DNA from: a virus
Lineage: Duplodnaviria; Heunggongvirae; Uroviricota; Caudoviricetes
Length of the DNA stretch: 64,000 bases
Direction: 5' to 3' (one strand)
Virus record (IMG/VR): IMGVR_UViG_3300028992_000036
Shown: positions 14,621 to 64,000 of the stretch, one piece after another
Position numbering within the stretch: position 1 is the stretch's first letter
How the letters are laid out: each line of letters begins with the position of its first letter
The notes under the pieces: model-generated
Database searches by the model: none
What the model saw: only the letters and a program-made list of their open reading frames with translations
Told to the model about the DNA's origin: nothing
Made by a program: the position numbers and the translations under genes

Positions 14621-14702
14621 TTTATTGCTACAATCCACTAAGTAATCACTTACTTATTATAATAGCCAAATAACATACAAAAGGCACTAAGGAAAGAGGT
14701 TT

Positions 14703-24735: not shown

Positions 24736-25101
24736 ATGATTGATGTCTTAGGGCCGGAGAAACGCAGACGGCGTACCACACAGGAAAAGATCGCAATTGT
24801 TCAGCAGAGCTTTGAACCGGGGATGACGGTCTCCCTCGTTGCCCGGCAACATGGTGTAGCAGCCAGCCAGTTATTTCTCTGGCGTAAGCAATACCAGGAA
24901 GGAAGTCTTACTGCTGTCGCCGCCGGAGAACAGGTTGTTCCTGCCTCTGAACTTGCTGCCGCCATGAAGCAGATTAAAGAACTCCAGCGCCTGCTCGGCA
25001 AGAAAACGATGGAAAATGAACTCCTCAAAGAAGCCGTTGAATATGGACGGGCAAAAAAGTGGATAGCGCACGCGCCCTTATTGCCCGGGGATGGGGAGTA
25101 A
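24736..25101 (+). CDS. insC: IS2 transposase OrfA (InsC)
   Basis: [32 protein letters not shown]... recognised as IS2 InsC. Confidence 0.85.
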
Positions 25102-25964: not shown

Positions 25965-26165
25965 GGGCAAATCCAATGGTTTGCTATGTGACACCGTAAT
26001 CACGCAGCTTTTCTTCCCTCCCCTGACTCCCCCATACTCCGTTTCTGTACCCAATTGAGTCCGAGATTGTATGGTGCTCGAAACAGATATTTGGTAGACA
26101 CTCAGAGTCATGCTGTGTAACGAGGGTAGGGCTACTAACTGTCGTCTTATACAATTTGGTGAGTT

Positions 26166-26414
26166 TCAGCATTTTACCACCCCGTTCGGAAACAACTCAT
26201 TCGCCGTAGTTGATATAACCTCCCAATTAACGCCGACATCAGCGTTATGGCATTGTCTGATTTTTTGCATCACCTGTACGCATTGTTCATCAGTGAGATC
26301 TGTCCTTACTTCAGCAATATCTTCTTTGTGCCACATAACCATGAGTAAGGGTTCGTCTTCTGGATAGTTTTTCAGTTTCTCGATGATTTCTTTTGCTGTT
26401 CCAAACATCTTCAT
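26166..26414 (-). CDS. small acidic hypothetical protein with two upstream motif-A copies
   Basis: 82 aa; GGAG RBS; motif A at 26419-26453 and 26467-26486 links it to the phage-like early genes. Confidence 0.45.
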   Translation of the reverse strand: MKMFGTAKEIIEKLKNYPEDEPLLMVMWHKEDIAEVRTDLTDEQCVQVMQKIRQCHNADVGVNWEVISTTANELFPNGVVKC

Positions 26415-26520
26415 CTCCTAAACAATTTGTTTTCTTATATGACTTATTATCTCAATCAACAAAAGGTAGAAAACAAATTGTTTTAGAGTTTGTTAAAGTC
26501 AGAAGGGGTTGTGTCTATAT

Positions 26521-26546
26521 GAAAATGCCCGGCGTGTTGCCGGGCA
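26521..26546 (-). terminator. metG intrinsic terminator
   Basis: GCCCGGC-aacac-GCCGGGC hairpin followed by ATTTT on the minus strand, ~25 nt after the metG stop. Confidence 0.5.
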
Positions 26547-26567
26547 TTGCGAAGAGAGGTTGTTTAA

Positions 26568-28601
26568 TTACTTAACCTGGTGGCCAGGTTTAGCACCAGC
26601 ATCCGGGCTTAACAGGAAGATATCTTTCCCGCCGGGGCCAGCAGCCATCACCATGCCTTCAGAGATACCGAAGCGCATTTTACGTGGTGCCAGGTTAGCC
26701 ACCATAATGGTGTGACGACCAATCAGTGCCTGTGGATCTGGATAAGCGGAACGGATGCCTGAGAAGACATTACGCTTTTCACCACCGAGATCCAGCGTCA
26801 GGCGAAGCAGTTTGTCAGAACCTTCTACAAACTCTGCGTTTTCAATCAGCGCCACGCGCAGGTCAACTTTGGCGAAGTCGTCAAAGGTGATAGTTTCCTG
26901 AATCGGGTCGTCAGCCAGTGGGCCAGTTACCGGTGCGGCTGTGGCTTTCACTTCTTCTTTGGATGCTTCCACCAGTGCTTCAACCTGCTTCATATCGATG
27001 CGGTTATACAGTGCCTTGAACGGATTCACTTTATGGCCCAGCAGCGGTTGCTGGATACCATCCCAGGTCAGTTCTGTATTCAGGAATGCTTCTGCACGTT
27101 CAGTCAGTTTCGGCAGTACCGGTTTCAGGTACGTCATCAGCACGCGGAACAGGTTAATGCCCATAGAGCAAATCGCCTGCAGATCGGCATCGCGTCCTTC
27201 CTGCTTTGCCACCACCCACGGAGCCTGTTCATCAACATAGCGGTTAGCCAGGTCAGCCAGTGCCATGATTTCACGGATAGCTTTGCCAAATTCGCGGCTT
27301 TCCCATGCTTCGCCAATCACTTCAGCGGCATCAGTAAAGGTTTTGTACAGTTGCGGGTCAGCCAGTTCGCTTGCCAGCACGCCGTCAAAACGCTTGTTGA
27401 TAAAGCCTGCATTACGGGAGGCCAGGTTAACCACTTTGTTAACGATATCGGCATTCACACGCTGAACGAAATCTTCCAGGTTGAGATCGATATCATCAAT
27501 GCGCGAAGAGAGTTTCGCAGTGTAGTAGTAACGCAGGCTGTCGGCGTCAAAATGATTCAGCCAGGTGCTGGCTTTAATAAAGGTGCCGCGAGACTTGGAC
27601 ATCTTCGCGCCGTTCACCGTCACATAGCCGTGAACAAACAGGTTGGTCGGCTTGCGGAAGTTGCTGCCTTCCAGCATGGCAGGCCAGAACAGGCTGTGGA
27701 AGTAAACGATATCTTTGCCGATGAAGTGGTACAGCTCGGCGGTGGAGTCTTTCTTCCAGTATTCGTCGAAGCTGGTAGTGTCGCCGCGTTTGTCGCACAG
27801 ATTCTTGAAGGAACCCATGTAGCCAATCGGCGCGTCCAGCCAGACGTAGAAGTATTTGCCCGGTGCGTTCGGAATTTCAAAACCGAAGTAAGGTGCGTCA
27901 CGGGAGATATCCCACTGTTGCAGGCCAGATTCAAACCACTCCTGCATTTTGTTTGCCACCTGCTCCTGCAACGCACCGCTGCGGGTCCATGCCTGCAACA
28001 TTTCGCTGAAAGAAGGCAGATCAAAGAAGAAGTGTTCGGAATCACGCATTACCGGTGTAGCGCCAGAAACCACTGATTTCGGCTCGATCAGTTCCGTCGG
28101 GCTGTATGTCGCGCCGCAGACTTCACAGTTATCGCCGTATTGATCCGGCGCTTTACATTTCGGGCATGTGCCTTTTACAAAACGGTCCGGCAGGAACATG
28201 CCTTTTTCCGGGTCGTACAGCTGAGAGATGGTGCGGTTTTTAATAAAACCGTTCTCTTTCAGGCGAGTATAGATAAGCTCGGACAACTGACGGTTCTCTT
28301 CGCTGTGCGTCGAGTGATAGTTGTCATAGCTGATGTTAAAGCCTGCGAAATCAGTCTGATGTTCCTGACTCATTTCGCCAATCATCTGTTCCGGTGTGAT
28401 ACCAAGCTGCTGTGCTTTCAGCATGATTGGCGTACCGTGGGCATCGTCGGCACAGATGAAATTAACCTCGTGGCCGCGCATTCGCTGGTAACGAACCCAG
28501 ACATCAGCCTGGATGTGCTCCAGCATATGGCCGAGGTGGATTGAGCCGTTAGCGTACGGCAGCGCGCACGTCACCAGAATTTTCTTCGCGACTTGGGTCA
28601 T
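26568..28601 (-). CDS. metG: methionyl-tRNA synthetase
   Basis: Protein from [29 protein letters not shown]... with class I HIGH motif (HLGH) and KMSKS; 677 aa; track ORF over-extended by 43 codons. Confidence 0.95.
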
Positions 28602-28758
28602 AGTAGGCATTACTTCTTTGTAGTGAAAAGGGGCTTGATAGTAACAAAATGGCCTTATGTCTGCCATGTGATAACAGCATTTCTCATAAATGATTAAATG
28701 TCGTAGCTGGAGTACACTACAAGGCGACAATTGCGCAAATTAAAATAAAGGAGACGGG

Positions 28759-29859
28759 ATGAGCGAGTCCAAATCGCCGGATGCCCTGAGAGCAATGGTA
28801 GCCGGTACGCTGGCTAATTTTCAGCACCCAACCCTGAAACACAACCTGACTACGCTTAAAGCGTTACACCATGTTGCGTTGATGGATGACACACTGCATG
28901 TCGAACTAATCATGCCTTTCGTGTGGAATAAGCCTTTTGAAGACCTGAAAGAGCAATGTAGTGGTGATCTGCTCCGTATCACTGGCGCAAAGGCTATTGA
29001 CTGGAAGCTGTCGTACAACATTGCCACGCTTAAGCGCGTCAAAAACCAACCAGGCATTAATGGCGTTAAGAACATTATCGCCGTCAGCTCAGGCAAGGGC
29101 GGCGTGGGTAAATCCTCCACGGCGGTAAACCTGGCACTGGCGTTGGCTGCTGAAGGTGCGAAAGTTGGTATTTTGGATGCCGATATCTATGGTCCATCAA
29201 TTCCAACCATGCTGGGCGCGGAAAACCAACGTCCAACCTCACCGGACGGTACTCACATGGCACCTATCATGTCTCATGGCCTGGCAACCAACTCTATTGG
29301 TTATCTGGTCACCGACGACAATGCAATGGTGTGGCGTGGACCGATGGCCAGCAAGGCGCTGATGCAGATGTTGCAGGAAACACTGTGGCCTGATCTGGAC
29401 TATCTCGTTCTCGATATGCCACCGGGCACTGGTGATATTCAATTGACGCTGGCGCAGAACATTCCTGTAACTGGTGCGGTTGTGGTAACTACGCCGCAAG
29501 ACATCGCGCTGATCGATGCGAAGAAAGGCATTGTGATGTTCGAAAAAGTCGAAGTGCCGGTACTGGGTATCGTTGAAAACATGAGTGTGCATATTTGCAG
29601 TAACTGCGGTCATCACGAGCCAATTTTTGGCACCGGTGGCGCACAGAAACTGGCCGAGAAATACAACACGCAGTTGTTAGGCCAAATGCCACTTCATATC
29701 TCTCTTCGTGAAGATCTGGATAACGGAACACCAACCGTTATTAGTCGTCCAGATAGTGAATTTACGGCTATTTATCGTGACCTCGCAGATCGCGTTGCTG
29801 CCCAAATGTATTGGCAAGGTGAAGTAATACCTGGCGAAATCGCATTCCGCGCAGTGTGA
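28759..29859 (+). CDS. apbC: Fe-S cluster carrier ATPase ApbC/Mrp
   Basis: P-loop [12 protein letters not shown], CxxC region ICSNCGHHE; divergent from metG as in E. coli; GGAG RBS. Confidence 0.9.
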
Positions 29860-36943: not shown

Positions 36944-37537
36944 CTAAGCAGCCTTCTTTGATGGTCTTTTTTTCCTGATCACATTCGCAGGATCATACCC
37001 TCCCAGACTTTTCATGACGTCCAAAGGGATCTTGCTTATAGAGTGCCCAGCGTCCTGACAGAATCCTCGAAAAACAACGAGCATACTGCCACCTGGGTTG
37101 ATGTTTACTTCTACCTGACCCAGATTTACGTCAGGCTCGACAAACGCTACGCGGCCACCAGACAGAATAATCGTCTCATTCGCACACTCTGTTGCACGCT
37201 CATACCACTTTGTATCTAGGGATTGAGGAATTAGCATCACTGTTGTAACTCCGCGAGCCTGCTCACGTATAGCCGCATCAATCCAGGGGTAGATTTTGGA
37301 GTAGGGTGGATTGAGGAAGGCAATTGTACCTGGCTGTCCCCATTCAGATTTCAAAGCATCACGCTCAACGCCTATGAAATTAGGCAGCTTTGCATTGTCC
37401 TTGTTGCAGGCAACGTCAACATCAAATGTCACTCCAAGATAACGTTGAATGGCAGAAAACAGCCAGTCAGGTGTTCTCCAGAGGTCACGAAGAGAGTTGT
37501 CACGCTTTCGCTGTTTGATTTTTTCGGCTGCAATCAT
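36944..37537 (-). CDS. phage-type Dam-family N6-adenine DNA methyltransferase
   Basis: NPPYS motif in a short ~197-aa protein typical of small phage Dam-like methylases; motif B immediately upstream. Confidence 0.7.
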   Translation of the reverse strand: MIAAEKIKQRKRDNSLRDLWRTPDWLFSAIQRYLGVTFDVDVACNKDNAKLPNFIGVERDALKSEWGQPGTIAFLNPPYSKIYPWIDAAIREQARGVTTVMLIPQSLDTKWYERATECANETIILSGGRVAFVEPDVNLGQVEVNINPGGSMLVVFRGFCQDAGHSISKIPLDVMKSLGGYDPANVIRKKRPSKKAA

Positions 37538-51925: not shown

Positions 51926-52570
51926 TTACAGCGCGTCAGTGGGCTTTTTACGCGCTGCGTTTATGCTTATGACGCCAGCTTTTGGACGTGGGTCAACAAG
52001 GTTAAGCTCTTCTTCGCTGTGGTATTCGAGGTCGAACTCACGTTTTACATGTCTGATGTAGATTGCGGTGAGCAGGCTATCTTTGGTCAGAAAGTGTCCG
52101 TAGGATTTGCGGATCACTTCTTCTACCTTCTCGATTTTCTCACCACCCATACAGAGATGATTAAACCGGCTGTGTTTCCGCAACATTTCGTCTACTGGGC
52201 CTGAGTAAACCTTGTCTACTTTCCCAAAACGGATGATTTTCCCTGTGTCTGCGGATACGAGGCAAATCAGCTTGTCTGGTGATAAACGATCTCGCCACGT
52301 CACACCTGAACGGAGTGTGTTGAAGTAGGGAGCATCCAATCCGATGATCGGTTTACGAAATGCGAGTAATGGAACGTACCTGATGCAACTGTTTAAATGA
52401 AAATTCACACCAGCCTTATCAAGTTTAATTCTGGTTTCGTAGATCGGGCACTTCGCCGCTATACCGCAGATGTCACAAAGCAACTTCTGCTTATTCAGGT
52501 TGGAATTTGATTCGATAGTGTAGGAGCCGTCTTCAAGACGACGAACCCAGCGCGTGCGTTTTAGATCCAT
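51926..52570 (-). CDS. hypothetical protein divergent from repA
   Basis: 214-aa ORF; no clear RBS. Confidence 0.35.
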   Translation of the reverse strand: MDLKRTRWVRRLEDGSYTIESNSNLNKQKLLCDICGIAAKCPIYETRIKLDKAGVNFHLNSCIRYVPLLAFRKPIIGLDAPYFNTLRSGVTWRDRLSPDKLICLVSADTGKIIRFGKVDKVYSGPVDEMLRKHSRFNHLCMGGEKIEKVEEVIRKSYGHFLTKDSLLTAIYIRHVKREFDLEYHSEEELNLVDPRPKAGVISINAARKKPTDAL

Positions 52571-52769
52571 ATGTCATTTTTCTGTGATTGTTAGCCGAGG
52601 CAACGATAACCCACCAGGTGCGCCGAAGGTAGTAAATGCCTGTTTTAATTATTCACATATCCACAGGATAGATCCTAATAAAGAGATCCATAGATAGATC
52701 CTTATATAGATCAAATAAGATCCCCGATCGCTGTAAGCCGCGCCACGACTGGTCTGAAGTCATGTTCAT

Positions 52770-52871
52770 GTATGCTGTCAGCGGTAATTGATAGTCTGTC
52801 AGCGGTTCACCGTATGCTGCCAACTGTTTTTGGTATTCTGTCAGCGGCAAATCAAGTATGCTGTCAGCGGT
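52770..52871. repeat. replication iterons, upstream set (5 copies, ~21-22 bp phase)
   Basis: (G)TATGCTGTCAGCGGT-type direct repeats at 52770, 52791, 52811, 52832, 52856. Confidence 0.7.
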
Positions 52872-52891
52872 TGAATGACAAAGGTGTCCAC

Positions 52892-53986
52892 ATGTCCACA
52901 AAAAATAAAAAAGGTAAAAATAACAAAGAAGTAGAAGATAACATCGACAACTTTGAAGAAGGTTCCCTTGAATTGTACACAGGGGAACTTGTCCCTAATA
53001 GCAACAATACAGTCCAACCAATTGCGTTGATGCGACTGGGGTTGTTCGTCCCCACGCTTAAGGGAACAAAATACAGTAAACGTAACAAGCCAAATGAGAT
53101 CGATGCTTCAAAGGAGCTTGTCCAGCTCGAAGTAGCCCGTTCTGAAGGCTATTCCGATATCAAGATAACCGGTCCTCGTCTCGACATGGATCATGATTTC
53201 AAAACGTGGGTGGGCGTTGTGCGTTCGCTGGCAGAATACGGCGAACCTAACGGTCGTGTCGAGTTAAGCATCACGAAATTTGCGAAGTTTTGTGGCTATC
53301 CATCGTCACAGATCCGCAAAACACTCCGCGACCGGCTTACAAACAGTCTTTTGAAGATCATGCGTACAACTCTGTCTTTCCAGAGAACGTATGAAGAAAA
53401 GAACGTCGACGGCTCTAACAAGATCTCGCTTCTGATGGTGCACCTCATCAATAGCGTGGACTACAACGAGCAGAAAGATACGGTGGTGTTCTATGCAGAA
53501 CCGAAGCTGGCCGAACTATATCGCTTTGACCATAAGGTTCTTTTGCAGTTAAAGGTTATCAATAAGCTACCACGCAAAGAAACAGCACAGGCTCTGTACA
53601 CCTTCATCGAAAGTCTTCCAACCAAGCCTGCGCCGGTATCGCTTGCTCGATTGCGTGCGCGACTCAATTTGAGTAGCAGGAATGTCAGCTCGCAGAATCA
53701 GACTATACGTAACGGCTTAAAAGCTCTCCAAGATTTGGGCTATCTCGAATACAGCGAGATTAAGCGTGGGCGGTCGATCTATATCCAGATTCACAGCCGC
53801 AATCCAAAACTCAAAGTCGCACCGCCAAAACCTGAAGACATCGAACCCAAAAAACCAGATGAGAAAGCCGGGGAAATTGATGCCAAACAGAACATTATCA
53901 ATAAGATAACCGAACTTTCGCAGAATTTGACGCCTGAAAATATCAAGATGATTGAGATCCTTTCCAATAGTCTCAAACTGCTTTGA
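52892..53986 (+). CDS. repA: plasmid-type replication initiator RepA
   Basis: 364 aa from ATG 52892 (AAAGGTG RBS), flanked by iteron arrays; iteron-binding initiator layout. Confidence 0.7.
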   Translation: MSTKNKKGKNNKEVEDNIDNFEEGSLELYTGELVPNSNNTVQPIALMRLGLFVPTLKGTKYSKRNKPNEIDASKELVQLEVARSEGYSDIKITGPRLDMDHDFKTWVGVVRSLAEYGEPNGRVELSITKFAKFCGYPSSQIRKTLRDRLTNSLLKIMRTTLSFQRTYEEKNVDGSNKISLLMVHLINSVDYNEQKDTVVFYAEPKLAELYRFDHKVLLQLKVINKLPRKETAQALYTFIESLPTKPAPVSLARLRARLNLSSRNVSSQNQTIRNGLKALQDLGYLEYSEIKRGRSIYIQIHSRNPKLKVAPPKPEDIEPKKPDEKAGEIDAKQNIINKITELSQNLTPENIKMIEILSNSLKLL

Positions 53987-54518
53987 TATGCTGTCAGCGG
54001 TGAAATGTATGCTATCAGCGGCTATTTTTCTGAAAAGTATGCTGTGAACGGTTAAAGATATGCTACCAGCGGTATAGTGAGATGAACGTATGCTGTGAGC
54101 GGTAAATCATCTATCACCACTCAATGCTCTGCCATACCTCCCCAGTGGTTACTAACCTCGAAGAGTGCATTCCATATAGGTTTGCGCTCACTAACATTCT
54201 ATTGCTATTGCGCTGATTGCTTGTAGTGAAAGGCATTTGTTGCCTGCTACTCCCTGATAGAATGTATGCTGTCAGCGGTGTTTTATTGAGGAATTTTTGT
54301 TTGGATATGCTATCAGCGGTAATTAATGGTATATGTCAGACCTTCGTATGCTGCCAGCGGTAATTTTGTTCTGGTTATACCCATACCGGGACACATTATT
54401 CATGCAATGTCTTAAGTATGCTGTCAGCGGTAAAAAATCGAGTAAAGTATGCTGTGAGCGGTGAGATAGACTCTCGATATGCTATCAGCGGTAGTTGATT
54501 GTGTATGCTGTCAGCGGT
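53986..54518. repeat. replication/incompatibility iterons, downstream set (~12 copies in two groups)
   Basis: TATGCT(G/A)T(C/G)AGCGGT-type direct repeats from the repA stop to 54518. Confidence 0.7.
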
Positions 54519-54565
54519 GACGACTATGAAATATGACTGCGGAACGTGCCGCAGTCAGTTTGCAT

Positions 54566-54778
54566 TTAGTGTATTTTCTTTAACAGACCCCAAAGTGTTC
54601 CGGCTTTTGTAGTCAGTTTTCCTGTTTCTGGATCGTACATACGCCATTCACGCCGCTGGTGGACGATATACCCATCTTCACGTTCCAGACGCTCAAGAAT
54701 GCCAGGCTGCTTGAAACCCTTAGCACGCCAGTAGCCGCTTGTTTTCTCGATTTCCAGACCTGCCAGTGTTAATGCCAT
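54566..54778 (-). CDS. small hypothetical protein
   Basis: 70 aa; start overlaps upstream stop (TAATG). Confidence 0.4.
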   Translation of the reverse strand: MALTLAGLEIEKTSGYWRAKGFKQPGILERLEREDGYIVHQRREWRMYDPETGKLTTKAGTLWGLLKKIH

Positions 54779-55113
54779 TACCCAACCTCCTTGCAGTCAT
54801 CGAAAAGGTAGCTGTCGTTCTTCGCGTGAACGCCGTATACATCACCCGATTTGTTGTAAACGAACCTATCTTTACCTACGCCAGATAGTTCGCCGTTACG
54901 TTTAGTGAGAAACGGGGAAGACAGGACGCGATCATCGCGTACCACATAAAACTGTTCGCCACGGTCCACAACCATCGCGCCGTAATTAGCTTTAACGGCG
55001 TTGCGGATCAGGCCGTTTTTCGCTTCGACCACAAACATTTCGCACTCATAGACATGTGTGTCCGCAAAGACGGGGAGAGTGAGCAGCGCCAGTACCAGGG
55101 CTGTTTTCTTCAT
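54778..55113 (-). CDS. small secreted protein, putative
   Basis: Signal peptide MKKTALVLALLTLPVFA; AAGGAG RBS. Confidence 0.5.
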   Translation of the reverse strand: MKKTALVLALLTLPVFADTHVYECEMFVVEAKNGLIRNAVKANYGAMVVDRGEQFYVVRDDRVLSSPFLTKRNGELSGVGKDRFVYNKSGDVYGVHAKNDSYLFDDCKEVG

Positions 55114-55783: not shown

Positions 55784-56289
<506 letters not shown>

Positions 56290-56480
56290 TGGCTCGGTCA
56301 CGGCGAACTGCCGTTCAAGGTAGTTAGGGATAGCAACATGTTCATGACCACCACGTTTATACCGGTGAGTCGGCTGCTGACAGCTGACCAGCCCCAGCTC
56401 CTTGGCAATTTGACGTCCTTTCAGGCCTGGTGACCCACCTAATAACTCTGAGACTGCCTTCAGCAAACCATCACTCCTTT

Positions 56481-59400
56481 CTACCTACCCACCATTCGTT
56501 GCATACTTTGCGTCCACGAGGCTTTAAATGCTGAATCTCCTGCGAACAACTTGTAGAGCTCAAGTTCATCTTTACGGCGTTGCAGCATGATTTCCTTGAG
56601 CATTTTTTCGAAGGCCAAATTTCGATTATGGGGATCTGGGTTGTTTTTGTATTTCGATTCGAAGTCAGGGTGATTGCGGATACTTTCAGCGATGTTCACG
56701 AACTTAACCTTTTGCTCTTCAGGTGTGGCACTCCAGCCCTGGAACCATCGCTCATTAAATGTGCGAATGATTTCATCCAGCGGGTCAGTTTCTTTTTCAC
56801 CGCCATGCACCCCACGTGGGTTCGGATTTTGAGGATCAAGCTCCGCTTCTTGGTCACTAAGTTTAATGCTGTGGTTAAGCTTCACACGTTGCAAACCGTA
56901 TGAACTCAGATCGACAGAATCGAGAAGCTCATCAATAGCATCAGCATCGGGATCTTCCACTTTCAATTTCGGTATTAAAAACTTCAGGAACCAAAACAGT
57001 TTTTCCCAGCTGACCATTTCATAAGGCATGATAGAAGCCATCTGCCCATAGATTTTAACGAACTGTTTGGCTTTAATCTTAAAGTCCACTTTAGCTTCAG
57101 CTTCAAGATCTAGTTCATGGTCAAACCGCGCTGCGGCAATATCAATGATTGGACTGAGTGTTTGGGCGTCTTCATTCTTGAAATAACGCGTCACAAAGTC
57201 TTCAACTTCATACCACTCGTACACACCGACATCGTCCATTTCATCTTTCAACTCGTGCAGTACGTTTATATCTGTAGCTTGGGACAATGACGTTGCTGTA
57301 TAGAAAGGATCGAATGCTGATTGAATATCTTCAACCGAGTTGAAAAAATCCAGGATAAACAAGTCTTCTGTTTTCTTCCCTAGCTTAGGTGCACTGCGAT
57401 TGAGCCTAGATAGCGCCTGAACACACAAGACACTGGCGAGCTTCTTATCTACATACATGGCGCAAAGCTTAGGCTGGTCAAACCCAGTCAGATACTTGTT
57501 AGCAACCACTAAAAGTCGATACTCATCGGTATCAAACATATCTTTGGTATCTGACTCGGCAAAACCATTAATATCTGCTTCGGTATATTCAATACCATCA
57601 ACTTCTTTGGTTCCTGAGAAAGCAATGGCAACTTTAAACGGGTTTCCTTGCTCCTCAAGTATTCGCCTTATCGCTTTGTAGTATCGAATGGCCGCCTCAA
57701 TATTTTGAGTGACCACCATTCCTTTACCTTTACCTTTGAGCTTTTTCGTATTCACGACATGCGGAACAAAATGCTCCAGCATAATCTCTGCCTTGATATC
57801 AATTGTTTGCTGGCTTCGTTCTACATAAGCTCTGAGTTTTTTCTGCGCCTTTTTGGTATCAAACTCAGGGTTATCAGCAATTGATTTCTCAATCTCATAA
57901 TAACTTTTGTACGTCGTATAATTTGCCAGCACATCCAAGATGAAGCCTTCTTCAATGGCTTGTTTCATCGAATACAAGTGAAACGGCTTGTAAGAGCCAT
58001 CTTCTTGGCGTTGACCAAATTTCTCCAAAGTGCTGTTTTTTGGTGTCGCTGTAAATGCCAGGTACGACGCATTCCCGCGCATCTTACGCGATCTCATCGC
58101 CTGAAGGATTTTATCCTGAGCATCTTCTGCCTCTTCGACTTCAGACTTGCCCATCGCTCGGTTCATATTGTCATGCGCCGAACCAGACTGTGAGCTGTGT
58201 GCTTCATCGATGATCACTGCAAAGCGCTTGTCACTAAGATCGGCGATACCATCAATAATGAACGGGAATTTCTGAATCGTCGTTATAATAATCTTTTTGC
58301 CATTCTCCAGCGCCTGCTTAAGCTCAGAAGACTTATTCGCTGGGGCAATAATGTTCTTTACTTCAGAAAACTCTTTAATGTTATCCCGCAGCTGCTTGTC
58401 CAATAGGCGTCTATCGGTGACCACAATCACAGAGTCAAACAACGGCTGCTCCAAGCTTTTTCCGCCTGCCACATCAGACGAAGCAGGATAGGTTTCAATT
58501 AGCTGATAAGCTGCCCAGGTAATCGAGTTAGACTTACCTGAACCGGCTGAGTGTTGAATTAAGTAAGTCTGACCGACACCGTGCTGGGCGGCATGGTCTA
58601 CTAATTTTCTCACCACATCCAATTGATGGTATCGAGGAAAGAACAGGGTTCGCTTGGGTAATGGATCTTTGCTTGACCCATCCAGACGCACAAAATGCTG
58701 AATAATATTCGCCAAGCTGTCTTTAGTGAATACTTCTTGCCATAGGTATGCCGTTTTATGGCCAGATGGATTCGGCGGGTTGCCTTGTCCAAGATTGTGA
58801 CCTTTATTGAACGGCAAGAAGAATGTACTGCTACCTGATAACTTGGTGGTCATATACACTTCGTCGGTATCGACCGCCATATGCACTAGGCAGCGGCCAA
58901 AGGTCAGCAATGGCTGAGTTGCATCCCGATCATCTCGATACTGCTTTTGGCCGTGATAACGTGCTGTTTGCCCGGTCCATGCGTTCTTCAACTCCAGCGT
59001 TATCAAGGGTATTCCGTTGATAAACAATACCATGTCGATTTCTTGTAGGGGATTTACCATGGAATAGCGCACTTGGCGAGTACAACTAAACACGTTATCT
59101 GCAAAGTTTTGCTTTACCTTCTCACTACTACTTGCCAAAGGGGCTGGATAGAGCAAATTGAAATGAGCATCGTCTACGCTTAGCCCTTTCTTAAGTAAAT
59201 GAAGAATGCCATGCTTCTTAATCAGTCGGTCAAATCGTTCGAGTAACTTACGTTGCCAATCTGAGGGGTTGTTCTTTTGCAGTTTGGCCAACTCTACTTC
59301 TTGTGTCTTTTGCAGAAATTGCCAGAAAAAACGTTCATCAATGGCATATTGCATATTAAAGTCACTAGCAGCACCAATGAAGTATCCAGCACCCAGTGAC

Positions 59401-59498
59401 TGCTGACTCAGCCCCTCTTTGAGCTCTTCAGTACTGATCCCAGCCAGACATTTCTCAATGGCCGACTCTAATGCTTGTTCATTGGTTTGACTGACCAT
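56481..59498 (-). CDS. hsdR: type I restriction enzyme R subunit
   Basis: N-terminal nuclease motif D..(13)..ELK, helicase motif [13 protein letters not shown] box VIIDEAHSS; 1005 aa; AAGGGA RBS. Confidence 0.85.
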
Positions 59499-59512
59499 AA
59501 TTGTAAGTTCCC

Positions 59513-60676
59513 TTAATCAAAATTCTTCTGTTTCATTGCCTCAGCCGCTTTTTGCAGCGGTCCTTTTAAGGCTTTTTCTAACTTTGTCATCTGCTCTAAG
59601 TGCCACGCAACCGCTTGGGGCCAAGTCTCTTTGTTAAACCCGTCAGCTTTGGTCGAAAACTGGATACGGCAAGATTTCTTCTCATCCAGCCTCATCCACT
59701 CAAGTTCTGCACCAAAAGTATGCTCAATGTCTTGTTTGGACTGACTCAACAAATCAAAAAGGTATTTATTCTCTTCGGTAACCCCACGGCTGATCCAAAG
59801 CTCTACTCGAAGCTCTTTTTGCAGAAATATCAGGTTATACGGACATCCACTTAGCCCTGAGCCTGCTGATAACCAATGATCTTTGCTTGGGCTAATGTTG
59901 TTATAGAGTTGGCAAGAGCTTTTCTGAAACGCCTCTAAGGCACGCTCCCAGTACTCGCGACGCACGGTATGGCGGTTTTTTAGTACCACTTCGGTGGTTT
60001 TTTCTTCCGCTTCCTTGGCATTAATGCCGATCATCAACTCTTTCGCTTCTGGCGTTGGAATGATCTGGTCAATATTAATCAGTAGCTGTTCACCCAGTGA
60101 ATAAGGCGTGATTTTGAAGCAGGCAATGCTAATGCCTTGACCCAATAACCACAGCGCGGTGCTGGTCACTTCTTTGCGAAAGTTTGCCGCAACTAACATA
60201 ATGCGCTGGCTGTTACCCAGGTTGAGCTTTAACTCATCGAGATCGGGCGCATCCAAAAACTCACATATTCTAGCAGAGGCACTTGCAGGGGTATTAAACA
60301 AGTCAACCTCTCCTGTTACAGGCTCATAGCGGTCTAAGTACTGCTGGTAAATTTCAACGATTTGCGCTTTGGTTAAACTTGCGCAGTAGGAGGCATATTT
60401 AAGCGCCTGCCACACCACATCGCGGCCACTGTCGTCCAGCTTGTTTTCAATAATGACCAAGTTGCCATCTTTATCCAGTGCCAGTAAATCTAAGCGTTCA
60501 CGGGTGTCATCAAAGCCATCGAACTCTTTTTGAATAATCAGCAGCTCTTCACCCAGTGCGGAAGGCTCGTGTGCCAACCATTCCTGAAGATTTTTGCGCT
60601 CAGTAAAGCCCAACTCACTGAATCTCTTCGTCTTAACCGGACTAATCCTGTTGGTCTGATGATTTACCGTGAACAT
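59513..60676 (-). CDS. PD-(D/E)xK-like domain protein embedded between hsdS and hsdR
   Basis: N-terminal DLLALDKDGNLVIIENK (D..E.K) nuclease-like motif; no P-loop; 9-14 nt gaps to hsdS and hsdR. Confidence 0.5.
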   Translation of the reverse strand: MFTVNHQTNRISPVKTKRFSELGFTERKNLQEWLAHEPSALGEELLIIQKEFDGFDDTRERLDLLALDKDGNLVIIENKLDDSGRDVVWQALKYASYCASLTKAQIVEIYQQYLDRYEPVTGEVDLFNTPASASARICEFLDAPDLDELKLNLGNSQRIMLVAANFRKEVTSTALWLLGQGISIACFKITPYSLGEQLLINIDQIIPTPEAKELMIGINAKEAEEKTTEVVLKNRHTVRREYWERALEAFQKSSCQLYNNISPSKDHWLSAGSGLSGCPYNLIFLQKELRVELWISRGVTEENKYLFDLLSQSKQDIEHTFGAELEWMRLDEKKSCRIQFSTKADGFNKETWPQAVAWHLEQMTKLEKALKGPLQKAAEAMKQKNFD

Positions 60677-60685
60677 ATTCGCTTC

Positions 60686-62014
60686 CTATTGCTCAACCAT
60701 TTCTGGGGTGATCTTGATTTTTCCTGTCACGGCGCTGTTGATCAGGGTGGTTTTATATTCTTTAAGCTTTTCGATTTGTATTTTTTGATACTCTATAGCT
60801 CGCTCAACATCACCATTTAATCTGTTAATGTACGTAATAATTCCATCTCGTTCATTTTTAGAAGGGGGGAAAGGCACAAAAATGCTATTAAGATTCCCCA
60901 CTGTAAGCTGATTAATTGTTGATGTAAGAAATGTCCCTGATAACATTTTGAAAACATCACTATTTAGAATGCAAAATAAATACTCATTGTGTTTAGATCT
61001 GAATACCGTAGTAAAGGCCCCGAAGCTGTTTCCCTCATCAGCGTCAGATACAAATGCACACTTGCCAATTAGGTCTCGACTTCCATTCCTGGAGCATATC
61101 AAAATATCACCTTTTTTAAGCTTTAAGTGCTCAGGAATAAAGCAATTGACATAAACATTTTCCTTTTCACCATACTTAAACTTCCCTTCGTATAAGTTTG
61201 ATGATCGCGCAACTAGAGTTCCGCCTTTTTCATCACTTAAATCATTTGGCGAATAAGTTAACCCAATGATCGATTTACCAAGATATTTTAACCTCTTAAC
61301 GTCCCAATGCGCTGGAATCTTACCAATCCAATCCACACCGGAGTCTTTCATTGGCACATTGGGATCAAGCCCTTGGGTCACCGCCTGTTGGATGATGATC
61401 TGCTTACGCTCTTTCAGCAGGCTAATTTGCTGCTCTTTGATCGAAATCGCTTCGTCGATTAGAGCGGTTTTCTTGTCGAGGAAGCAGGCAATTAGAAGTT
61501 GTTCCTCGGTTGGTGGCAAAAATACCAAGGCTCGTTTTAATTGAGGCCAATATAGGTTTCTCTGAATTGTTCCTACACCTTTTGAGCTAACTAAGTAATT
61601 AGCCACCATTGCCCCATCTCTGAACAGATAGTTACCAAAGCGGGGAACTATATCTTCCGATAAAGAAAGAACTAAGTAAGCTGGGCTGACTATTCCTCGG
61701 TAATCAGAAACACCGACTGAACCACGCCAAGCTTGCTGATTATTTAAAACAAAGTCACCTGGATCTACCAACTGATACTTAGTCAGATCCGAACTGGTTG
61801 TATTTGTACGTTTTGCATCAACGTCATCGAATTTTATTACTCCTTTGTCCAAATAGACTGATAGAAGCTCTTCATTTTCATTATTAGAAATAGATTTTAA
61901 TTTTGATTTTGCGCACAAAGGAAATGAATTCCAGTGAACTGGTATGGCCCCTATCCATTCAACACCTGAATCTTTATAAGCCTCATATTTCGGCATTTCA
62001 GAAATCTTCATCAT
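60686..62014 (-). CDS. hsdS: type I restriction-modification specificity subunit
   Basis: Two target-recognition domains each beginning KDSGV(E/D)WIG.IP.HW, separated by conserved helical spacer. Confidence 0.8.
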   Translation of the reverse strand: MMKISEMPKYEAYKDSGVEWIGAIPVHWNSFPLCAKSKLKSISNNENEELLSVYLDKGVIKFDDVDAKRTNTTSSDLTKYQLVDPGDFVLNNQQAWRGSVGVSDYRGIVSPAYLVLSLSEDIVPRFGNYLFRDGAMVANYLVSSKGVGTIQRNLYWPQLKRALVFLPPTEEQLLIACFLDKKTALIDEAISIKEQQISLLKERKQIIIQQAVTQGLDPNVPMKDSGVDWIGKIPAHWDVKRLKYLGKSIIGLTYSPNDLSDEKGGTLVARSSNLYEGKFKYGEKENVYVNCFIPEHLKLKKGDILICSRNGSRDLIGKCAFVSDADEGNSFGAFTTVFRSKHNEYLFCILNSDVFKMLSGTFLTSTINQLTVGNLNSIFVPFPPSKNERDGIITYINRLNGDVERAIEYQKIQIEKLKEYKTTLINSAVTGKIKITPEMVEQ

Positions 62015-62020
62015 AACGAC

Positions 62021-64000
62021 TTACCCCTGAACCTTTTTTACTTCCGCACCAAGAATCTGCGCAATCAAACCTTCGGCTTTTTGTTCTAGGTTGATGATGT
62101 CGGTTGCGACCTCTTCTAAACTACGCAGCGGTTTATGACGGTAGAAATACTTATTGAAGCTGATTTCATAGCCAATTTTTACCGTATCTAGGTTTATCCA
62201 TGCTTCATCGACATGAGGCTTCACTTCATCTAGGAAGTACTGGTAAATGCTTTGCTTTAATGGAACAGATTCTGTATCTCGCAGGTCTGAATTGGTCTCG
62301 TAAGTGATATACTCGCCTTTTTTACCGCCTTCTGCTGAAGGAACGGGGTAATAACCAAAATCTGGCAAGTCAGCGACTTCACACTCATAGCGCTCCAGCA
62401 GGTCGTTTAATTTATCACCCGTTAATTTAACTACCTTTTTAACCACTTTCTTGGCGGTTTCGTCATACCAGCTCACCGCGTGAAGAATGGCATTTTTCTC
62501 AGGTGCTGAAAGCTTAATAGCATGGGCTTTTAGCGATTTATCAACTTGGGTTTTAAAGCTATTGAAGTCATCAAATTCAATGCTACCGATGTCAGCCATC
62601 AGCGTTTGTGCAGTTTCAAGCAATGCTTTTAGCGCCAGCCAGTGTTTCACATCAAGCAGTTTGGCCTTAGCCTTAGCATTGAGACTGATGTCGTTATCTT
62701 CACACCAAGAAAGAATGTCTTTCTCGATGGATTTTAAGAAGCTCTTTTTCTGATCTGACCCGTAGCCAGTTTTTTCGTAAACACGTTCGCCGTGCTCTGC
62801 GTACACGTACTCCATCACTTCACTAAGTTGCTTATCAAAACGCAGTGGGGCTATGGCATCTTGAGTAAACTTGGCTTTGCGGCGATCTGGGCGCTCGATA
62901 GTGACTTTGTAGTAGCCAAAATCGTCATTGCTGAATACCTTACTGGCGATGCCAACAGGATCATTGTTTGCATCCAGTGCTCTTTCAACATCCTTACACG
63001 CGAGGTAAGTATCGGTAATTTCCGTGATGTGCTCAGGCGCAAATTCGCAGTTTTTGTTACCTAAGTTCTTGCGCAACTTACGGTAGAGCAAGCTGGCATC
63101 AATTAATTGCACCTTACCTTTACGCGCCTCAGGTTTATTGTTGTTCAACACCCAAATGTAAGTGGTAATGCCAGTGTTATAGAACAGGTTATTAGGTAAC
63201 TGAACGATGGCATCTAGCATGTCGTTTTCAATGATGAAGCGACGAATATTACTTTCGCCACCGCCCGCATCACCGGTAAAGAGCGATGAGCCGTTATGAA
63301 CAGAGGCAATCCGGCTGCCTAATGGACTTACGCTCGGATCTTTCATCTTGTTGACCATCTCCATTAAGAAAAGCAGCTGGCCATCACTCGAACGTGGCGT
63401 GGCATCCACCACTTCGAGATTTCCCCAATAGTCTTTCAGGCTAACCTTAAAACGCGGGTCAATCACATCGCTGCCGTCTTTAATGTACTTCTGTTCAGAC
63501 GCCCAACTCTTACCGTATGGCGGGTTAGACAACATAAAGTCAAAGCGAGAAGCCGCAAACTCGTCGGTAGACAAGGTTGAGCCTACCTTGATGTTCTCAG
63601 GGTTGTTACCTTTGATCATCATGTCCGATTTACAAATCGCGTAGGTCTCGTCATTGATCTCTTTGCCGTAAAGGTAAATATCTCGGCTGTCGTTCGGGTA
63701 TTTCTCTTCAATGAAGTTTTGAGATTCAGTGAGCATACCACCGCTACCACACGCAGGGTCGTAAACGGTCATGGTCAATGGTAGCTGCTCTTTCACTGGG
63801 TCAAAAACCAAGTGTGTCATCAGCTCAATCACTTCCCTAGGTGTAAAGTGCTCACCGGCTTCTTCGTTATTCTCCTCGTTGAACTTACGGATCAACTCTT
63901 CGAACACGTACCCCATACCCAGGTTAGTAAGGGCTGGCATCTTGTTGCCATCTGGGTCTTCGATCGTTTCATGAGTTAAGTTGATGTAAGGGGAAACAAA
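62021..64000 (-). CDS. hsdM: type I restriction-modification methyltransferase subunit, N-terminus beyond window end
   Basis: Motif I DPACGSGGML, motif IV NPPYG; reading frame stays open upstream of the first Met to nt 64000. Confidence 0.85.
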   Translation of the reverse strand, partial: FVSPYINLTHETIEDPDGNKMPALTNLGMGYVFEELIRKFNEENNEEAGEHFTPREVIELMTHLVFDPVKEQLPLTMTVYDPACGSGGMLTESQNFIEEKYPNDSRDIYLYGKEINDETYAICKSDMMIKGNNPENIKVGSTLSTDEFAASRFDFMLSNPPYGKSWASEQKYIKDGSDVIDPRFKVSLKDYWGNLEVVDATPRSSDGQLLFLMEMVNKMKDPSVSPLGSRIASVHNGSSLFTGDAGGGESNIRRFIIENDMLDAIVQLPNNLFYNTGITTYIWVLNNNKPEARKGKVQLIDASLLYRKLRKNLGNKNCEFAPEHITEITDTYLACKDVERALDANNDPVGIASKVFSNDDFGYYKVTIERPDRRKAKFTQDAIAPLRFDKQLSEVMEYVYAEHGERVYEKTGYGSDQKKSFLKSIEKDILSWCEDNDISLNAKAKAKLLDVKHWLALKALLETAQTLMADIGSIEFDDFNSFKTQVDKSLKAHAIKLSAPEKNAILHAVSWYDETAKKVVKKVVKLTGDKLNDLLERYECEVADLPDFGYYPVPSAEGGKKGEYITYETNSDLRDTESVPLKQSIYQYFLDEVKPHVDEAWINLDTVKIGYEISFNKYFYRHKPLRSLEEVATDIINLEQKAEGLIAQILGAEVKKVQG

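What the first reader, a model, noticed from the sequence alone, without database searches (positions are those of the whole stretch)
52770..54518. Iteron-flanked RepA replicon inside a phage-gene context (phage-plasmid signature)
RepA is flanked by 5 upstream and about 12 downstream TATGCTGTCAGCGGT-type iterons at 21-22-bp phase, the layout of iteron-controlled low-copy plasmids. It sits beside SbcCD-like, NrdAB, ThyA and DHFR genes and a virion operon. No integrase is present in the window, suggesting an extrachromosomal or formerly extrachromosomal phage-plasmid.
Basis: partly seen in the sequence, partly recalled or inferred. Interest (0 to 1): 0.6.

Follow-up and report, generated by a model that had tools for sequence, protein, structure and literature searches.

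The report
P1-type iteron replicon of phage-plasmid
This is the plasmid-maintenance replication module (origin, RepA initiator and copy-control repeats) of a well-known family of E. coli viruses that live as free plasmids; it is built like the textbook phage P1 replicon and is ordinary, apart from one small conserved DNA element inside it whose role is unknown.

Summary
There are 17 copies of RTATGCTGTCAGCGGT, all on the + strand: 5 upstream and 12 downstream of repA, against about 1.45 chance matches per window. The window is a 64-kb arc of a ~112-kb circular SSU5-supergroup (pSLy3-group) phage-plasmid, 99.97-100% identical to E. coli plasmid pRHB17-C18_2. This replicon occurs in 120 of 5,426 complete E. 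coli genomes, at 185 places on plasmids and none on chromosomes.

The anatomy matches the P1 plasmid replicon part for part: tandem DnaA boxes, a GATC-heptamer AT-rich stretch and a GC block (78% identical to the P1 oriR core), five origin iterons 21-23 bp apart, repA (43.5% identical to P1 RepA, predicted double winged-helix fold), then a control array that begins at the stop codon.

Corrections:
- repA starts at ATG 52892 (364 aa), not inside the iterons.
- The origin extends left to about 52645, outside the given coordinates.
- Downstream spacing is irregular (21-176 bp).
- The complete element does encode a tyrosine recombinase, outside the window.

This is already known. The only possibly new item is a conserved bipartite palindrome (54141-54195) inside the control array. 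It is found next to repA across the whole supergroup, including a Y. pestis pMT1-size contig, and is absent from P1.

The parts
52649..52665 (+). Tandem DnaA boxes (TTATTCACA, then ATATCCACA) at the left edge of the plasmid origin
   Evidence: one perfect TTATNCACA match and an adjacent 1-mismatch box. They align with the annotated DnaA-binding site of P1 oriR. 82% of columns are invariant across 5 relatives, against 9% just to the left. Homology with the IncF-borne copy begins at 52642.
52666..52730 (+). AT-rich stretch with six GATC sites, five in (A/G)AGATC heptamer-like repeats; presumed unwinding element and Dam/SeqA target
   Evidence: this is the densest GATC cluster in the window (6 in 59 bp; window mean 4.5 per kb); 64.6% A+T, with TAGATCC-type heptamers as at the five annotated Dam sites of P1 oriR. 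68% invariant columns. Function is inferred from P1.
52731..52765 (+). GC-rich spacer (GCCGCGCCACG.CTGG) between the GATC region and the iterons
   Evidence: Nearly identical to the corresponding block of P1 oriR. GCCGCGCC is invariant in relatives.
52770..52871 (+). Five origin iterons (incC-like), spacing 21, 21, 21, 23; contains the probable repA promoter (-35 TTGGTA 52830-52835, -10 AAGTAT 52854-52859)
   Evidence: Same number and spacing as the P1 incC iterons (21, 21, 21, 22). Iteron cores are 76% invariant against 45% for the spacers between them. The promoter is only a positional analogue of P1 PrepA and was not called by the consensus scan.
52892..53986 (+). repA: 364-aa iteron-binding replication initiator (Rep_3 / WH1-WH2 type)
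   Evidence: Pfam Rep3_N 3.9e-9. 43.5% identity to P1/P7 RepA (2e-64) and 47.9% to SSU5 RepA. AlphaFold model mean pLDDT 71.8; Foldseek finds RctB domains 2-3 at 5.6e-8, RepE at 3e-5, pi at 1e-2 and TrfA at 2e-2. dN/dS 0.03-0.06. The SD AAAGG (52880-52884) and the ATG at 52892 are conserved in 5 relatives, and many database plasmids are rotated to start at this ATG.
53987..54103 (+). Control iterons, block 1 (5 copies, incA-like), starting one base after the repA stop codon
   Evidence: P1 incA likewise starts at the repA stop. Conserved in the Salmonella, Cronobacter and Klebsiella relatives.
54141..54195 (+). Conserved bipartite palindromic block (arm 1 CCCAGTGGTTACTAAC, arm 2 GTTTGCGCTCACTAAC, fixed 39-bp spacing, variable centre); function unknown
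   Evidence: Present downstream of repA in 90 of 93 loci across the SSU5 supergroup. Direct orientation in the clade with RepA >=80% identical, inverted in the SSU5/pMT1-type clade. Unique on the plasmid, absent from P1, and deleted in one complete plasmid.
54265..54518 (+). Control iterons, block 2 (7 copies), irregular spacing 41, 41, 70, 31, 30, 26
   Evidence: Copy number varies among relatives through iteron-to-iteron deletions: PhiR41_1 lacks 54432-54502 and p204A1-109K lacks 54022-54260.
54534..54557 (.). Terminator-like hairpin closing the replicon, between repA and its arrays and the convergent minus-strand genes
   Evidence: 9-bp stem with 6 GC pairs, called on both strands. The stem is conserved and the loop differs in Salmonella.

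Best explanation
The locus is the plasmid-prophage replicon of an SSU5-supergroup (pSLy3-group) phage-plasmid, and it is a homologue of the phage P1 oriR-repA-incA replicon.

Proposed mechanism, shown for P1 and inferred here:
1. RepA monomers bind the five origin iterons.
2. With host DnaA bound at the tandem boxes, they open the adjacent GATC-rich A+T stretch and load the host replisome for theta replication.
3. Dam methylation of the GATC heptamers, followed by SeqA sequestration of the hemimethylated origin, limits immediate re-initiation.
4. The repA promoter lies within iterons 3-5, so RepA represses its own synthesis.
5. The twelve downstream iterons titrate RepA and pair with origin iterons ('handcuffing') to hold copy number low.

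Shown here: the sequence anatomy, homology of both the protein and the origin DNA to P1, purifying selection, phylogenetic footprints, and exclusively plasmid location. Inferred: every biochemical step.
For: Iterons: 17 copies against 1.45 expected by chance, all direct.

RepA: 43.5% identical to P1/P7 RepA (2e-64), Pfam Rep3_N, and a predicted fold that matches the iteron initiators RctB, RepE, pi and TrfA.

Origin: the leader at about 52638-52752 is 78% identical to the curated P1 oriR core (E 2e-18; global alignment score 54 against a shuffle mean of -16). The order of parts is the same as in the P1 record: DnaA site, Dam sites, GC block, 5 iterons at 21, 21, 21, 22, repA, then incA starting at the stop codon.

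Selection: repA has dN/dS 0.03-0.06 with dS above 1.4. Despite that divergence the iteron cores, DnaA boxes and GATC region stay 68-82% invariant, while flanking DNA is 9% invariant. The same iteron is used in the E. coli, Klebsiella, Salmonella and Cronobacter relatives.

Location: 120 of 5,426 complete E. coli genomes carry it, at 185 places on plasmids and 0 on chromosomes. The window is collinear with circular plasmid CP057685.1 across that record's start point.

Natural deletion variants that remove distal or internal control iterons exist in complete plasmids and in a record deposited as a phage genome, as expected for a dispensable incA-like array. A 1.39-kb module running from the DnaA boxes to the third downstream iteron (52642-54030) has been captured between IS21 copies on an IncF plasmid.

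Literature: pSLy3 names a group of the SSU5 phage-plasmid supergroup (PMC7969092; bioRxiv 10.1101/2025.09.12.675607). These phage-plasmid types were found only extrachromosomally in thousands of genomes (PMC9600943). The related Cyrano/pLF82 is maintained at about 5.5 copies (PMC9928086).
Against: No replication experiment exists for this particular replicon in the literature I could search.

The repA promoter assignment is weak: 4/6 and 3/6 hexamer matches, not called by the scan.

There are three architectural differences from P1. All 12 control iterons are direct, whereas P1 has 3 direct and 6 inverted. No parAB operon follows the array. A conserved non-iteron block interrupts the array.

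Downstream spacings of 26, 70 and 176 bp are not multiples of the helical repeat.

RepA has no sequence-level match to any solved structure, and the model is only moderately confident (mean pLDDT 71.8).

The physical state of the molecule in the sample that gave this window cannot be checked.
Confidence: 0.9

Rival explanations
1. The replicon works, but the element is no longer a functional phage: it is a defective phage-plasmid, or simply a plasmid carrying prophage genes, so 'phage-plasmid' describes ancestry and not lifestyle.
For: The window carries an IS2 insertion (24646-25975) that the otherwise near-identical plasmid lacks, an IS3-family remnant at about 55784-56466, and a type I restriction-modification cargo island. 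One E. coli SSU5-like phage-plasmid was not inducible by mitomycin C (PMC9600943).
Against: The full structural module is intact in the collinear plasmid. Escherichia phage PhiR41_1, 94-99% identical across the matching stretches, is deposited as a phage genome with MG1655 named as host. Other SSU5-like elements produce virions (PMC9600943, PMC9928086). This rival does not touch the replicon interpretation.
Confidence: 0.15
2. The locus is a chromosomally integrated or decaying remnant with an inactive RepA, and the repeats are relics.
For: The window alone cannot show the physical state of the molecule. The literature mentions chromosomally integrated plasmids with an SSU5-like repB/parA region in Salmonella Agona (bioRxiv 10.1101/2025.09.12.675607).
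Against: None of the 185 places in complete E. coli genomes is chromosomal. The window has no chromosomal flank and runs straight across the start point of a circular plasmid record. repA is intact and under strong purifying selection, and the iterons are conserved far above the neighbouring DNA.
Confidence: 0.03
3. The downstream repeat array is mainly a partition (centromere-like) or other cis site and not a copy-number control array.
For: No par operon lies next to the replicon, so the centromere's location is unknown. The array contains a conserved palindromic block that is not an iteron.
Against: The downstream repeats have the same 16-bp sequence as the origin iterons, so they should bind the same protein, RepA. 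Their position, starting at the stop codon, copies P1 incA. Their number varies from 3 to 12 in relatives that are complete plasmids, which suits a titrating array better than a centromere.
Confidence: 0.05

Closest known systems
Phage P1 (and P7) plasmid-prophage replicon: oriR / incC - repA - incA (IncY)
   Same: RepA is 43.5% identical. The origin core DNA is 78% identical: tandem DnaA boxes, TAGATCC-type GATC heptamers, and the GCCGCGCCACG block. Both have five origin iterons at 21, 21, 21, 22/23 bp, a promoter position inside the iterons, and a control array that starts at the repA stop codon. Both serve a plasmid prophage.
   Different: The iteron sequence differs (RTATGCTGTCAGCGGT against GATGTGTGCTGGAGGGAAA). 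There are 12 control iterons, all direct, in two blocks, against 9 in P1 (3 direct, 6 inverted). No parAB-parS follows the array. A conserved bipartite palindrome sits inside the array. There are six GATC sites, not five. The leader is short (20 bp), with no right-hand DnaA box cluster. RepA is 364 aa against 286 aa, with N- and C-terminal extensions.
pSLy3 / pRHB17-C18_2 / p2009EL-2050-type E. coli phage-plasmids (pSLy3 group of the SSU5 supergroup; MOB-suite rep_cluster_488)
   Same: The replicon is 99-100% identical. The window is collinear with CP057685.1 at 99.97-100%. The neighbouring genes are the same.
   Different: Only an IS2 insertion at 24646-25975 and the first 76 bases differ. 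pSLy3 itself has an IS91-family insertion about 100 bp left of the origin and a group II intron.
Salmonella phage SSU5, pHCM2 and Y. pestis pMT1 replicons
   Same: Same gene neighbourhood: SbcCD-like genes, the 214-aa gene, repA, then small minus-strand genes. RepA is about 48% identical. Iterons lie on both sides of repA. The same bipartite palindromic block lies downstream of repA.
   Different: The iteron is different (AACCACTGTAGAGAG / ATCCACTGTAGAGAG), so a different incompatibility specificity is expected. The downstream iterons are in mixed orientation, and the block is inverted relative to repA.
RepFIB replicons of IncF plasmids and p0111-type P1-like phages; IncpKPHS1 Klebsiella plasmids
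   Same: RepA is about 41% identical to proteins annotated 'RepFIB replication protein A'. The Klebsiella pKPHS1-type RepA is about 85% identical and uses the same iteron. The literature treats the SSU5 rep genes as IncFIB-type in typing databases (bioRxiv 10.1101/2025.09.12.675607).
   Different: The published IncpKPHS1 description reports only 4 iterons downstream of repA and no recognised RepA domain (PMC6735626). Here the Klebsiella relative has 5 + 8 iterons, and RepA matches Pfam Rep3_N.

Membership tests
P1-type (P1 RepA / RepFIB lineage) iteron-controlled theta replicon | Initiator homologous to P1 RepA, Rep_3 family, with a double winged-helix fold | tested here: met
   tblastn gives 43.5% identity at 2e-64 to P1/P7 RepA. 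Pfam PF01051 at 3.9e-9, above the cut-off. Foldseek hits to RctB domains 2-3, RepE, pi and TrfA.
P1-type (P1 RepA / RepFIB lineage) iteron-controlled theta replicon | Origin made of DnaA boxes, a GATC-heptamer A+T-rich stretch, a GC block and five direct iterons about 21 bp apart, immediately upstream of repA | tested here: met
   78% nucleotide identity to the annotated P1 oriR core (E 2e-18), with the same order and spacing of parts.
P1-type (P1 RepA / RepFIB lineage) iteron-controlled theta replicon | repA promoter embedded in the origin iterons (autorepression) | tested here: inconclusive
   A weak -35 TTGGTA / -10 AAGTAT pair with an 18-bp spacer lies at the position homologous to P1 PrepA. 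It falls below the threshold of the consensus scan. No transcript data are available.
P1-type (P1 RepA / RepFIB lineage) iteron-controlled theta replicon | Second iteron array downstream of repA acting as a copy-control (incA) locus | tested here: met
   The anatomy is met: 12 iterons start one base after the stop codon, and their number varies through deletions in viable relatives. The control function itself cannot be tested with these tools.
P1-type (P1 RepA / RepFIB lineage) iteron-controlled theta replicon | P1-type parA-parB-parS operon adjacent to incA | tested here: not met
   Downstream of the array are a hairpin and small minus-strand ORFs with no Pfam hit. The window's ParB_N proteins (13272-14638) lie beside the terminase gene. 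The 'ParA' Pfam hit at 28759-29859 is to PF10609, the NUBPL iron-transfer P-loop NTPase model, which I read as a Mrp/ApbC-type ATPase and not a partition protein. This is a linkage feature of P1, not of the replicon family.
P1-type (P1 RepA / RepFIB lineage) iteron-controlled theta replicon | Autonomous replication dependent on RepA, DnaA and Dam; incompatibility exerted by the iterons | not testable with these tools
   This needs cloning and host-mutant assays. The indirect support is the exclusively plasmid location.
SSU5-supergroup phage-plasmid, pSLy3 group | Gene content and order shared with reference members | tested here: met
   Collinear at 99.97-100% with CP057685.1. The replicon is 100% identical to pSLy3. 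Virion genes are 82-98% identical to SSU5 and Cyrano.
SSU5-supergroup phage-plasmid, pSLy3 group | Both a plasmid replication module and a complete tailed-phage structural module on one replicon | tested here: met
   The replicon is as described above. Terminase, portal, major capsid, tape measure and tail genes are annotated on the collinear plasmid.
SSU5-supergroup phage-plasmid, pSLy3 group | Extrachromosomal maintenance | tested here: met
   Met for relatives: 185 of 185 places are on plasmids in complete E. coli genomes. The window has no chromosomal flank. The state in the source sample itself is not testable.
SSU5-supergroup phage-plasmid, pSLy3 group | Production of infectious virions | not testable with these tools
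   PhiR41_1 is deposited as a phage genome with MG1655 named as host, and related elements are inducible (PMC9600943, PMC9928086). Nothing is known for this copy.

The most novel reading that the evidence does not exclude
The 55-bp bipartite palindrome at 54141-54195 is an undescribed cis-regulatory site of SSU5-supergroup plasmid replicons. It has two ~16-bp palindromic arms resembling GTTAGTGATCACTAAC at a fixed 39-bp spacing and is embedded in the copy-control iteron array. The proposal is that it binds a dimeric host-encoded or element-encoded protein that modulates RepA-iteron handcuffing or couples plasmid replication to the lysis-lysogeny state, loosely comparable to the non-iteron 39-mer sites of Vibrio cholerae ori2.

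Supporting facts: it is conserved across RepA clades that use different iterons, it flips orientation between clades, it is absent from P1, and it can be deleted without loss of the plasmid.
Probability: 0.3. Interest if true: 0.45.

Novelty: already known. Interest (0 to 1): 0.2.

Why it matters
This replicon defines which plasmids and phage-plasmids can coexist, and it is a typing target for a family that is common in clinical E. coli and Shigella and sometimes carries resistance genes. The base-level map given here covers the true repA start, the origin boundaries, the 5+12 iterons and the homology to P1 oriR. It corrects database annotations, namely the over-extended RepA and the iterons labelled attL/attR. 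It also gives ready-made constructs for copy-number and incompatibility experiments. It does not change what is understood about these elements. The conserved palindromic block is the only lead that might.

Tried and rejected
1. Solved structures by sequence. A single-sequence search and a 40-sequence profile search found no meaningful match. The fold search was needed to place RepA.

2. NCBIfam gave no hit for RepA or for its two flanking small genes.

3. Rfam search of 52400-54800 with permissive filters found nothing, so no known antisense or control RNA is present. This replicon is therefore not a CopA/IncFII-type replicon like the one in the 2026 heteroresistance preprint, which concerns a different phage-plasmid family.

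4. RNA or hairpin reading of the conserved block. RNAalifold gives -7.8 kcal/mol with one compensatory pair among 13, and several pairs are broken in SSU5. I rejected this in favour of two palindromic protein-binding arms.

5. The block as a dispersed operator of the prophage repressor. The palindrome and its half-site are not enriched elsewhere on the 112-kb plasmid (6 hits against 5.5 expected at 2 mismatches). Rejected.

6. The block as a partial inverted iteron (a RepE-type dimer operator). Only 7-mer resemblances exist, which are expected by chance, and the block is unchanged in the SSU5 clade, which uses a different iteron. Not supported.

7. The consensus promoter scan did not call a repA promoter. 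The assignment rests only on positional homology to P1.

8. The ATG at 52772 (the 404-aa RefSeq model) as the repA start. Rejected because it lies inside iteron 1, upstream of the presumed promoter, and because the SD and ATG at 52892 are what is conserved.
Full report
**1. The observation**

The pattern TATGCTGTCAGCGGT, allowing three mismatches, matches 20 times in the 64-kb window. Seventeen matches fall in this locus and all are on the + strand. Dinucleotide-preserving shuffles give 1.45 matches on average and never more than 5.

Five copies lie upstream of the long ORF, starting at 52771, 52792, 52813, 52834 and 52857, with spacing 21, 21, 21, 23. Twelve lie downstream, from 53987 to 54504, with spacing 21, 30, 21, 30, 176, 41, 41, 70, 31, 30, 26. 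The counts are right. The '21-22-bp phase' holds only for the upstream set and two downstream pairs. A position-by-position count shows a 16-bp informative core, RTATGCTGTCAGCGGT.

The downstream copies form two blocks, five at 53987-54103 and seven at 54265-54518, separated by 161 bp.

**2. The protein**

The ORF matches Pfam Rep3_N (PF01051, 3.9e-9). Translated searches of phage genomes find P1 and P7 RepA at 43.5% identity (2e-64), SSU5 RepA at 47.9%, and proteins annotated 'RepFIB replication protein A' at 41%.

No solved structure is detectable by sequence, even with a 40-sequence profile. An AlphaFold model built on that alignment has mean pLDDT 71.8, with 78-92 over most of residues 70-300. 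Foldseek matches it to RctB domains 2-3 (5.6e-8), RepE of F (3e-5), pi of R6K (1e-2) and TrfA (2e-2), all of them replication initiators that bind repeated origin sites.

Compared with relatives from Salmonella and from an IncF plasmid, dN/dS is 0.03-0.06 with dS above 1.4. The gene is therefore under strong purifying selection.

The RefSeq model of 404 aa starts at the ATG inside the first iteron (52772). An AAAGG Shine-Dalgarno sequence (52880-52884) and the ATG at 52892 are conserved in five diverged relatives. The phage record annotates the 364-aa form, and dozens of deposited plasmids are rotated to begin at this ATG. I take 52892-53986 as repA.

**3.

Left of the iterons, in order, are:
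- tandem DnaA boxes, TTATTCACA at 52649 and ATATCCACA at 52657;
- a 65-bp stretch, 64.6% A+T, holding six GATC sites, which is the densest GATC cluster in the window;
- a GC-rich block, GCCGCGCCACGACTGG.

The curated GenBank record of P1 lists the same order for oriR: a DnaA site, five Dam sites, the incC iterons at 21, 21, 21, 22 bp with PrepA inside them, repA, and nine incA iterons beginning at the repA stop codon.

The two origin cores align at 78% identity over 118 bp (E 2e-18). A global alignment scores 54, against -16 ± 5 for shuffles. The GATC sites sit in the same TAGATCC-type heptamers. The iterons themselves differ (P1: GATGTGTGCTGGAGGGAAA), as expected for different incompatibility specificities.

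The position homologous to P1 PrepA carries only a weak promoter, TTGGTA-18-AAGTAT at 52830-52859. The consensus scan does not call it, so autorepression is inferred and not shown.

**4. Phylogenetic footprint**

I compared relatives from Salmonella Newport, Cronobacter and Klebsiella, plus a copy on an IncF plasmid, all 75-82% identical in repA DNA. The fraction of invariant alignment columns by segment is:

| Segment | Invariant columns |
|---|---|
| 65 bp left of the origin | 9% |
| DnaA boxes | 82% |
| GATC stretch | 68% |
| Iteron cores | 76% |
| Spacers between iterons | 45% |

. All these relatives use the same iteron. SSU5 and a Y. pestis pMT1-size contig use a different one, A(A/T)CCACTGTAGAGAG.

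The upstream frame of five iterons does not change. The downstream number does: 12 here, 12 in Cronobacter, 11 in Salmonella, 9 in PhiR41_1, 8 in Klebsiella pJN2-26 and in E. coli p204A1-109K, and 3 in the IncF copy. The E. coli variants are clean iteron-to-iteron deletions, 54432-54502 and 54022-54260. This is the behaviour expected of a dispensable, titrating control array like P1 incA.

**5. What the window is**

The window is collinear with the complete circular plasmid pRHB17-C18_2 (CP057685.1, 112,153 bp). Window 77-24645 corresponds to record 27652-3084. Window 25976-29064 corresponds to record 3089-1. Window 29065-56252 corresponds to record 112153-84966. Window 56290-64000 corresponds to record 84924-77214. 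Identity is 99.97-100% throughout.

The only differences are an IS2 insertion at 24646-25975 and a masked run of 37 N. There is no chromosomal flank.

The plasmid carries terminase, portal, major capsid, tape-measure and tail genes. The first 11 kb of the window are 82% identical to the SSU5 virion genes and 98% identical to those of phage Cyrano. Pfam confirms the SbcC-like, SbcD-like, NrdA, NrdB, ThyA and DHFR neighbours.

**6. Extrachromosomal state**

Among 5,426 complete E. coli genomes, 120 carry this replicon. All 185 matching places are on plasmids and none is on a chromosome. In PLSDB, 143 plasmids match, mostly non-mobilizable and about 110 kb, typed rep_cluster_488.

The literature already places pSLy3, which is 100% identical over the replicon, as the name-giving member of a group in the SSU5 phage-plasmid supergroup (PMC7969092; bioRxiv 10.1101/2025.09.12.675607). 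It also reports that these phage-plasmid types have been found only extrachromosomally (PMC9600943). The relative Cyrano/pLF82 is kept at about 5.5 copies and is induced by ciprofloxacin (PMC9928086).

I found no recombinase in the window, only DDE transposases among the ORFs scanned. The full plasmid, however, has a site-specific integrase gene next to an HTH regulator at record 62021-63124. I infer, by analogy with Cre in P1, that it resolves plasmid multimers; this was not tested.

**7. Differences from P1**

- All twelve control iterons are direct, whereas P1 has three direct and six inverted.
- No parAB-parS follows the array. The window's two ParB_N proteins lie beside the terminase gene. 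The Pfam 'ParA' hit at 28759-29859 is to the NUBPL iron-transfer P-loop NTPase model (PF10609), which I read as a Mrp/ApbC-type ATPase next to metG, not a partition protein.
- RepA is longer. It has a disordered lysine-rich N-terminus and, after a disordered linker, a confidently modelled two-helix C-terminal tail at residues 327-363.
- The array is interrupted by a conserved block that is not an iteron.

**8. The conserved block (54141-54195)**

The 161-bp gap between the two iteron blocks is mostly unconserved, except for 55 bp: CCCAGTGGTTACTAACC-N21-GGTTTGCGCTCACTAAC.

Comparing 23 sequence variants shows that each arm is a copy of a ~16-bp palindrome. One variant carries the perfect form, GTTAGTGATCACTAAC. 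The distance between the arms is fixed at 39 bp, and the centre is variable.

A pattern scan found the block in 89 IMG/VR contigs and in contigs of Kluyvera, Buttiauxella and Y. pestis, the last 108 kb long and so of pMT1 size. In 90 of the 93 loci a RepA homologue lies in the same locus, and the block always lies downstream of it. Its orientation is direct in all 64 loci where RepA is at least 80% identical to ours. It is inverted in all 26 loci with SSU5/pMT1-type RepA.

Further properties:
- It occurs once per plasmid and its motif is not enriched elsewhere on the plasmid.
- It has no Rfam match.
- It shows little support for an RNA or DNA hairpin.
- It is absent from P1.
- It is deleted in the complete plasmid p204A1-109K.

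My reading, which is inference only, is that it is an accessory binding site for a dimeric protein conserved across the supergroup or its hosts. I found no description of it in the searchable literature. That is weak evidence of novelty, because the older P1, RepFIB and pMT1 papers are not in the library.

**9. Natural module boundaries**

A 208-kb conjugative IncF plasmid (CP099079.1) carries an 80%-identical copy that spans only window 52642-54030. That is from 7 bp left of the DnaA boxes to the third downstream iteron, and the copy is bracketed by IS21. pSLy3 tolerates an IS91-family insertion at about 52545. Both fit a left origin boundary at the DnaA boxes and a minimal unit of origin plus repA, as in P1.

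**10. Verdict**

The locus is the P1-type, iteron-controlled plasmid replicon of a pSLy3-group SSU5-like phage-plasmid. That family is already catalogued, and the sequence is already in databases at 100% identity.

This analysis adds a precise map, the demonstration that the origin DNA itself is homologous to P1 oriR, several annotation corrections, and one unexplained conserved element.

Interest is low (0.2). The most novel reading still open concerns the palindromic block (probability about 0.3, interest if true about 0.45).

Noticed in passing
window 54141-54195: A conserved bipartite palindrome sits inside the downstream iteron array: two ~16-bp arms resembling GTTAGTGATCACTAAC, 39 bp apart. 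It lies next to repA throughout the SSU5 supergroup (89 viral contigs, plus Kluyvera, Buttiauxella and a Y. pestis pMT1-size contig). It is inverted in the SSU5/pMT1-type clade, absent from P1, and deleted in one complete plasmid. Its function is unknown.
   Followed up: partly
window 26568-29859: A full-length methionyl-tRNA synthetase gene (metG, 720 aa, minus strand) lies divergent from a Mrp/ApbC-type P-loop ATPase gene (366 aa). From my own knowledge this resembles the chromosomal metG-apbC gene pair, carried here on the phage-plasmid. The ATPase gene is unannotated in CP057685.1 because it crosses the record's start point.
   Followed up: partly
window 36944-37537 (minus strand): The element encodes a phage-type Dam DNA N6-adenine methyltransferase (Pfam PF05869, 2.9e-38). 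Its own plasmid origin has six clustered GATC sites, so the element could methylate its own origin independently of host Dam.
   Followed up: no
window 24646-25975 and about 55784-56466 (N run at 56253-56289): A complete IS2 (InsC/InsD-type ORFs) is inserted relative to the otherwise near-identical plasmid CP057685.1. An IS3-family transposase remnant, interrupted by a masked run of 37 N, lies between the replicon-side genes and the restriction-modification island.
   Followed up: partly
window 56481-63940 (minus strand): A type I restriction-modification cluster (HsdR 1005 aa, a DUF4268 protein, HsdS, HsdM) lies about 2 kb from the replicon. It looks like variable cargo: only 4 plasmids cover at least 80% of window 39001-64000, while most relatives stop matching near window 55630.
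   Followed up: partly
L005 (Klebsiella phage pJN2-26) 1378-1397 and 2648-2667; window 52772: Two database misannotations. Two iterons flanking repA in pJN2-26 are labelled phage attR/attL. RefSeq models of RepA (404 aa) start at the ATG inside iteron 1, not at the conserved ATG at 52892.
   Followed up: yes
L008 (E. coli plasmid CP099079.1, 208 kb, IncFIA/FIB/FIC, conjugative) 3001-4407: An 80%-identical copy of just the origin plus repA plus three downstream iterons (window 52642-54030), bracketed by IS21 elements, sits on a conjugative multi-replicon IncF plasmid. The replicon module therefore moves outside phage-plasmids.
   Followed up: partly
window 12610-14638 (minus strand): Two consecutive ParB N-terminal-domain proteins and an ABC-type ATPase lie immediately beside the DNA-packaging genes, not beside the replicon. 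It is unclear whether they serve partition, packaging or something else.
   Followed up: no
window 53870-53986 (RepA residues 327-363): RepA has a confidently modelled two-helix C-terminal tail after a disordered linker. P1 RepA (286 aa) lacks it, but most of the 40 aligned homologues have it. Its role is unknown.
   Followed up: no
L013 (CP057685.1 record 62021-63505), outside the window: The complete element encodes a site-specific (tyrosine) integrase next to an HTH regulator although it is never found integrated. It is possibly a multimer-resolution or lysogeny-module recombinase, like Cre of P1.
   Followed up: no
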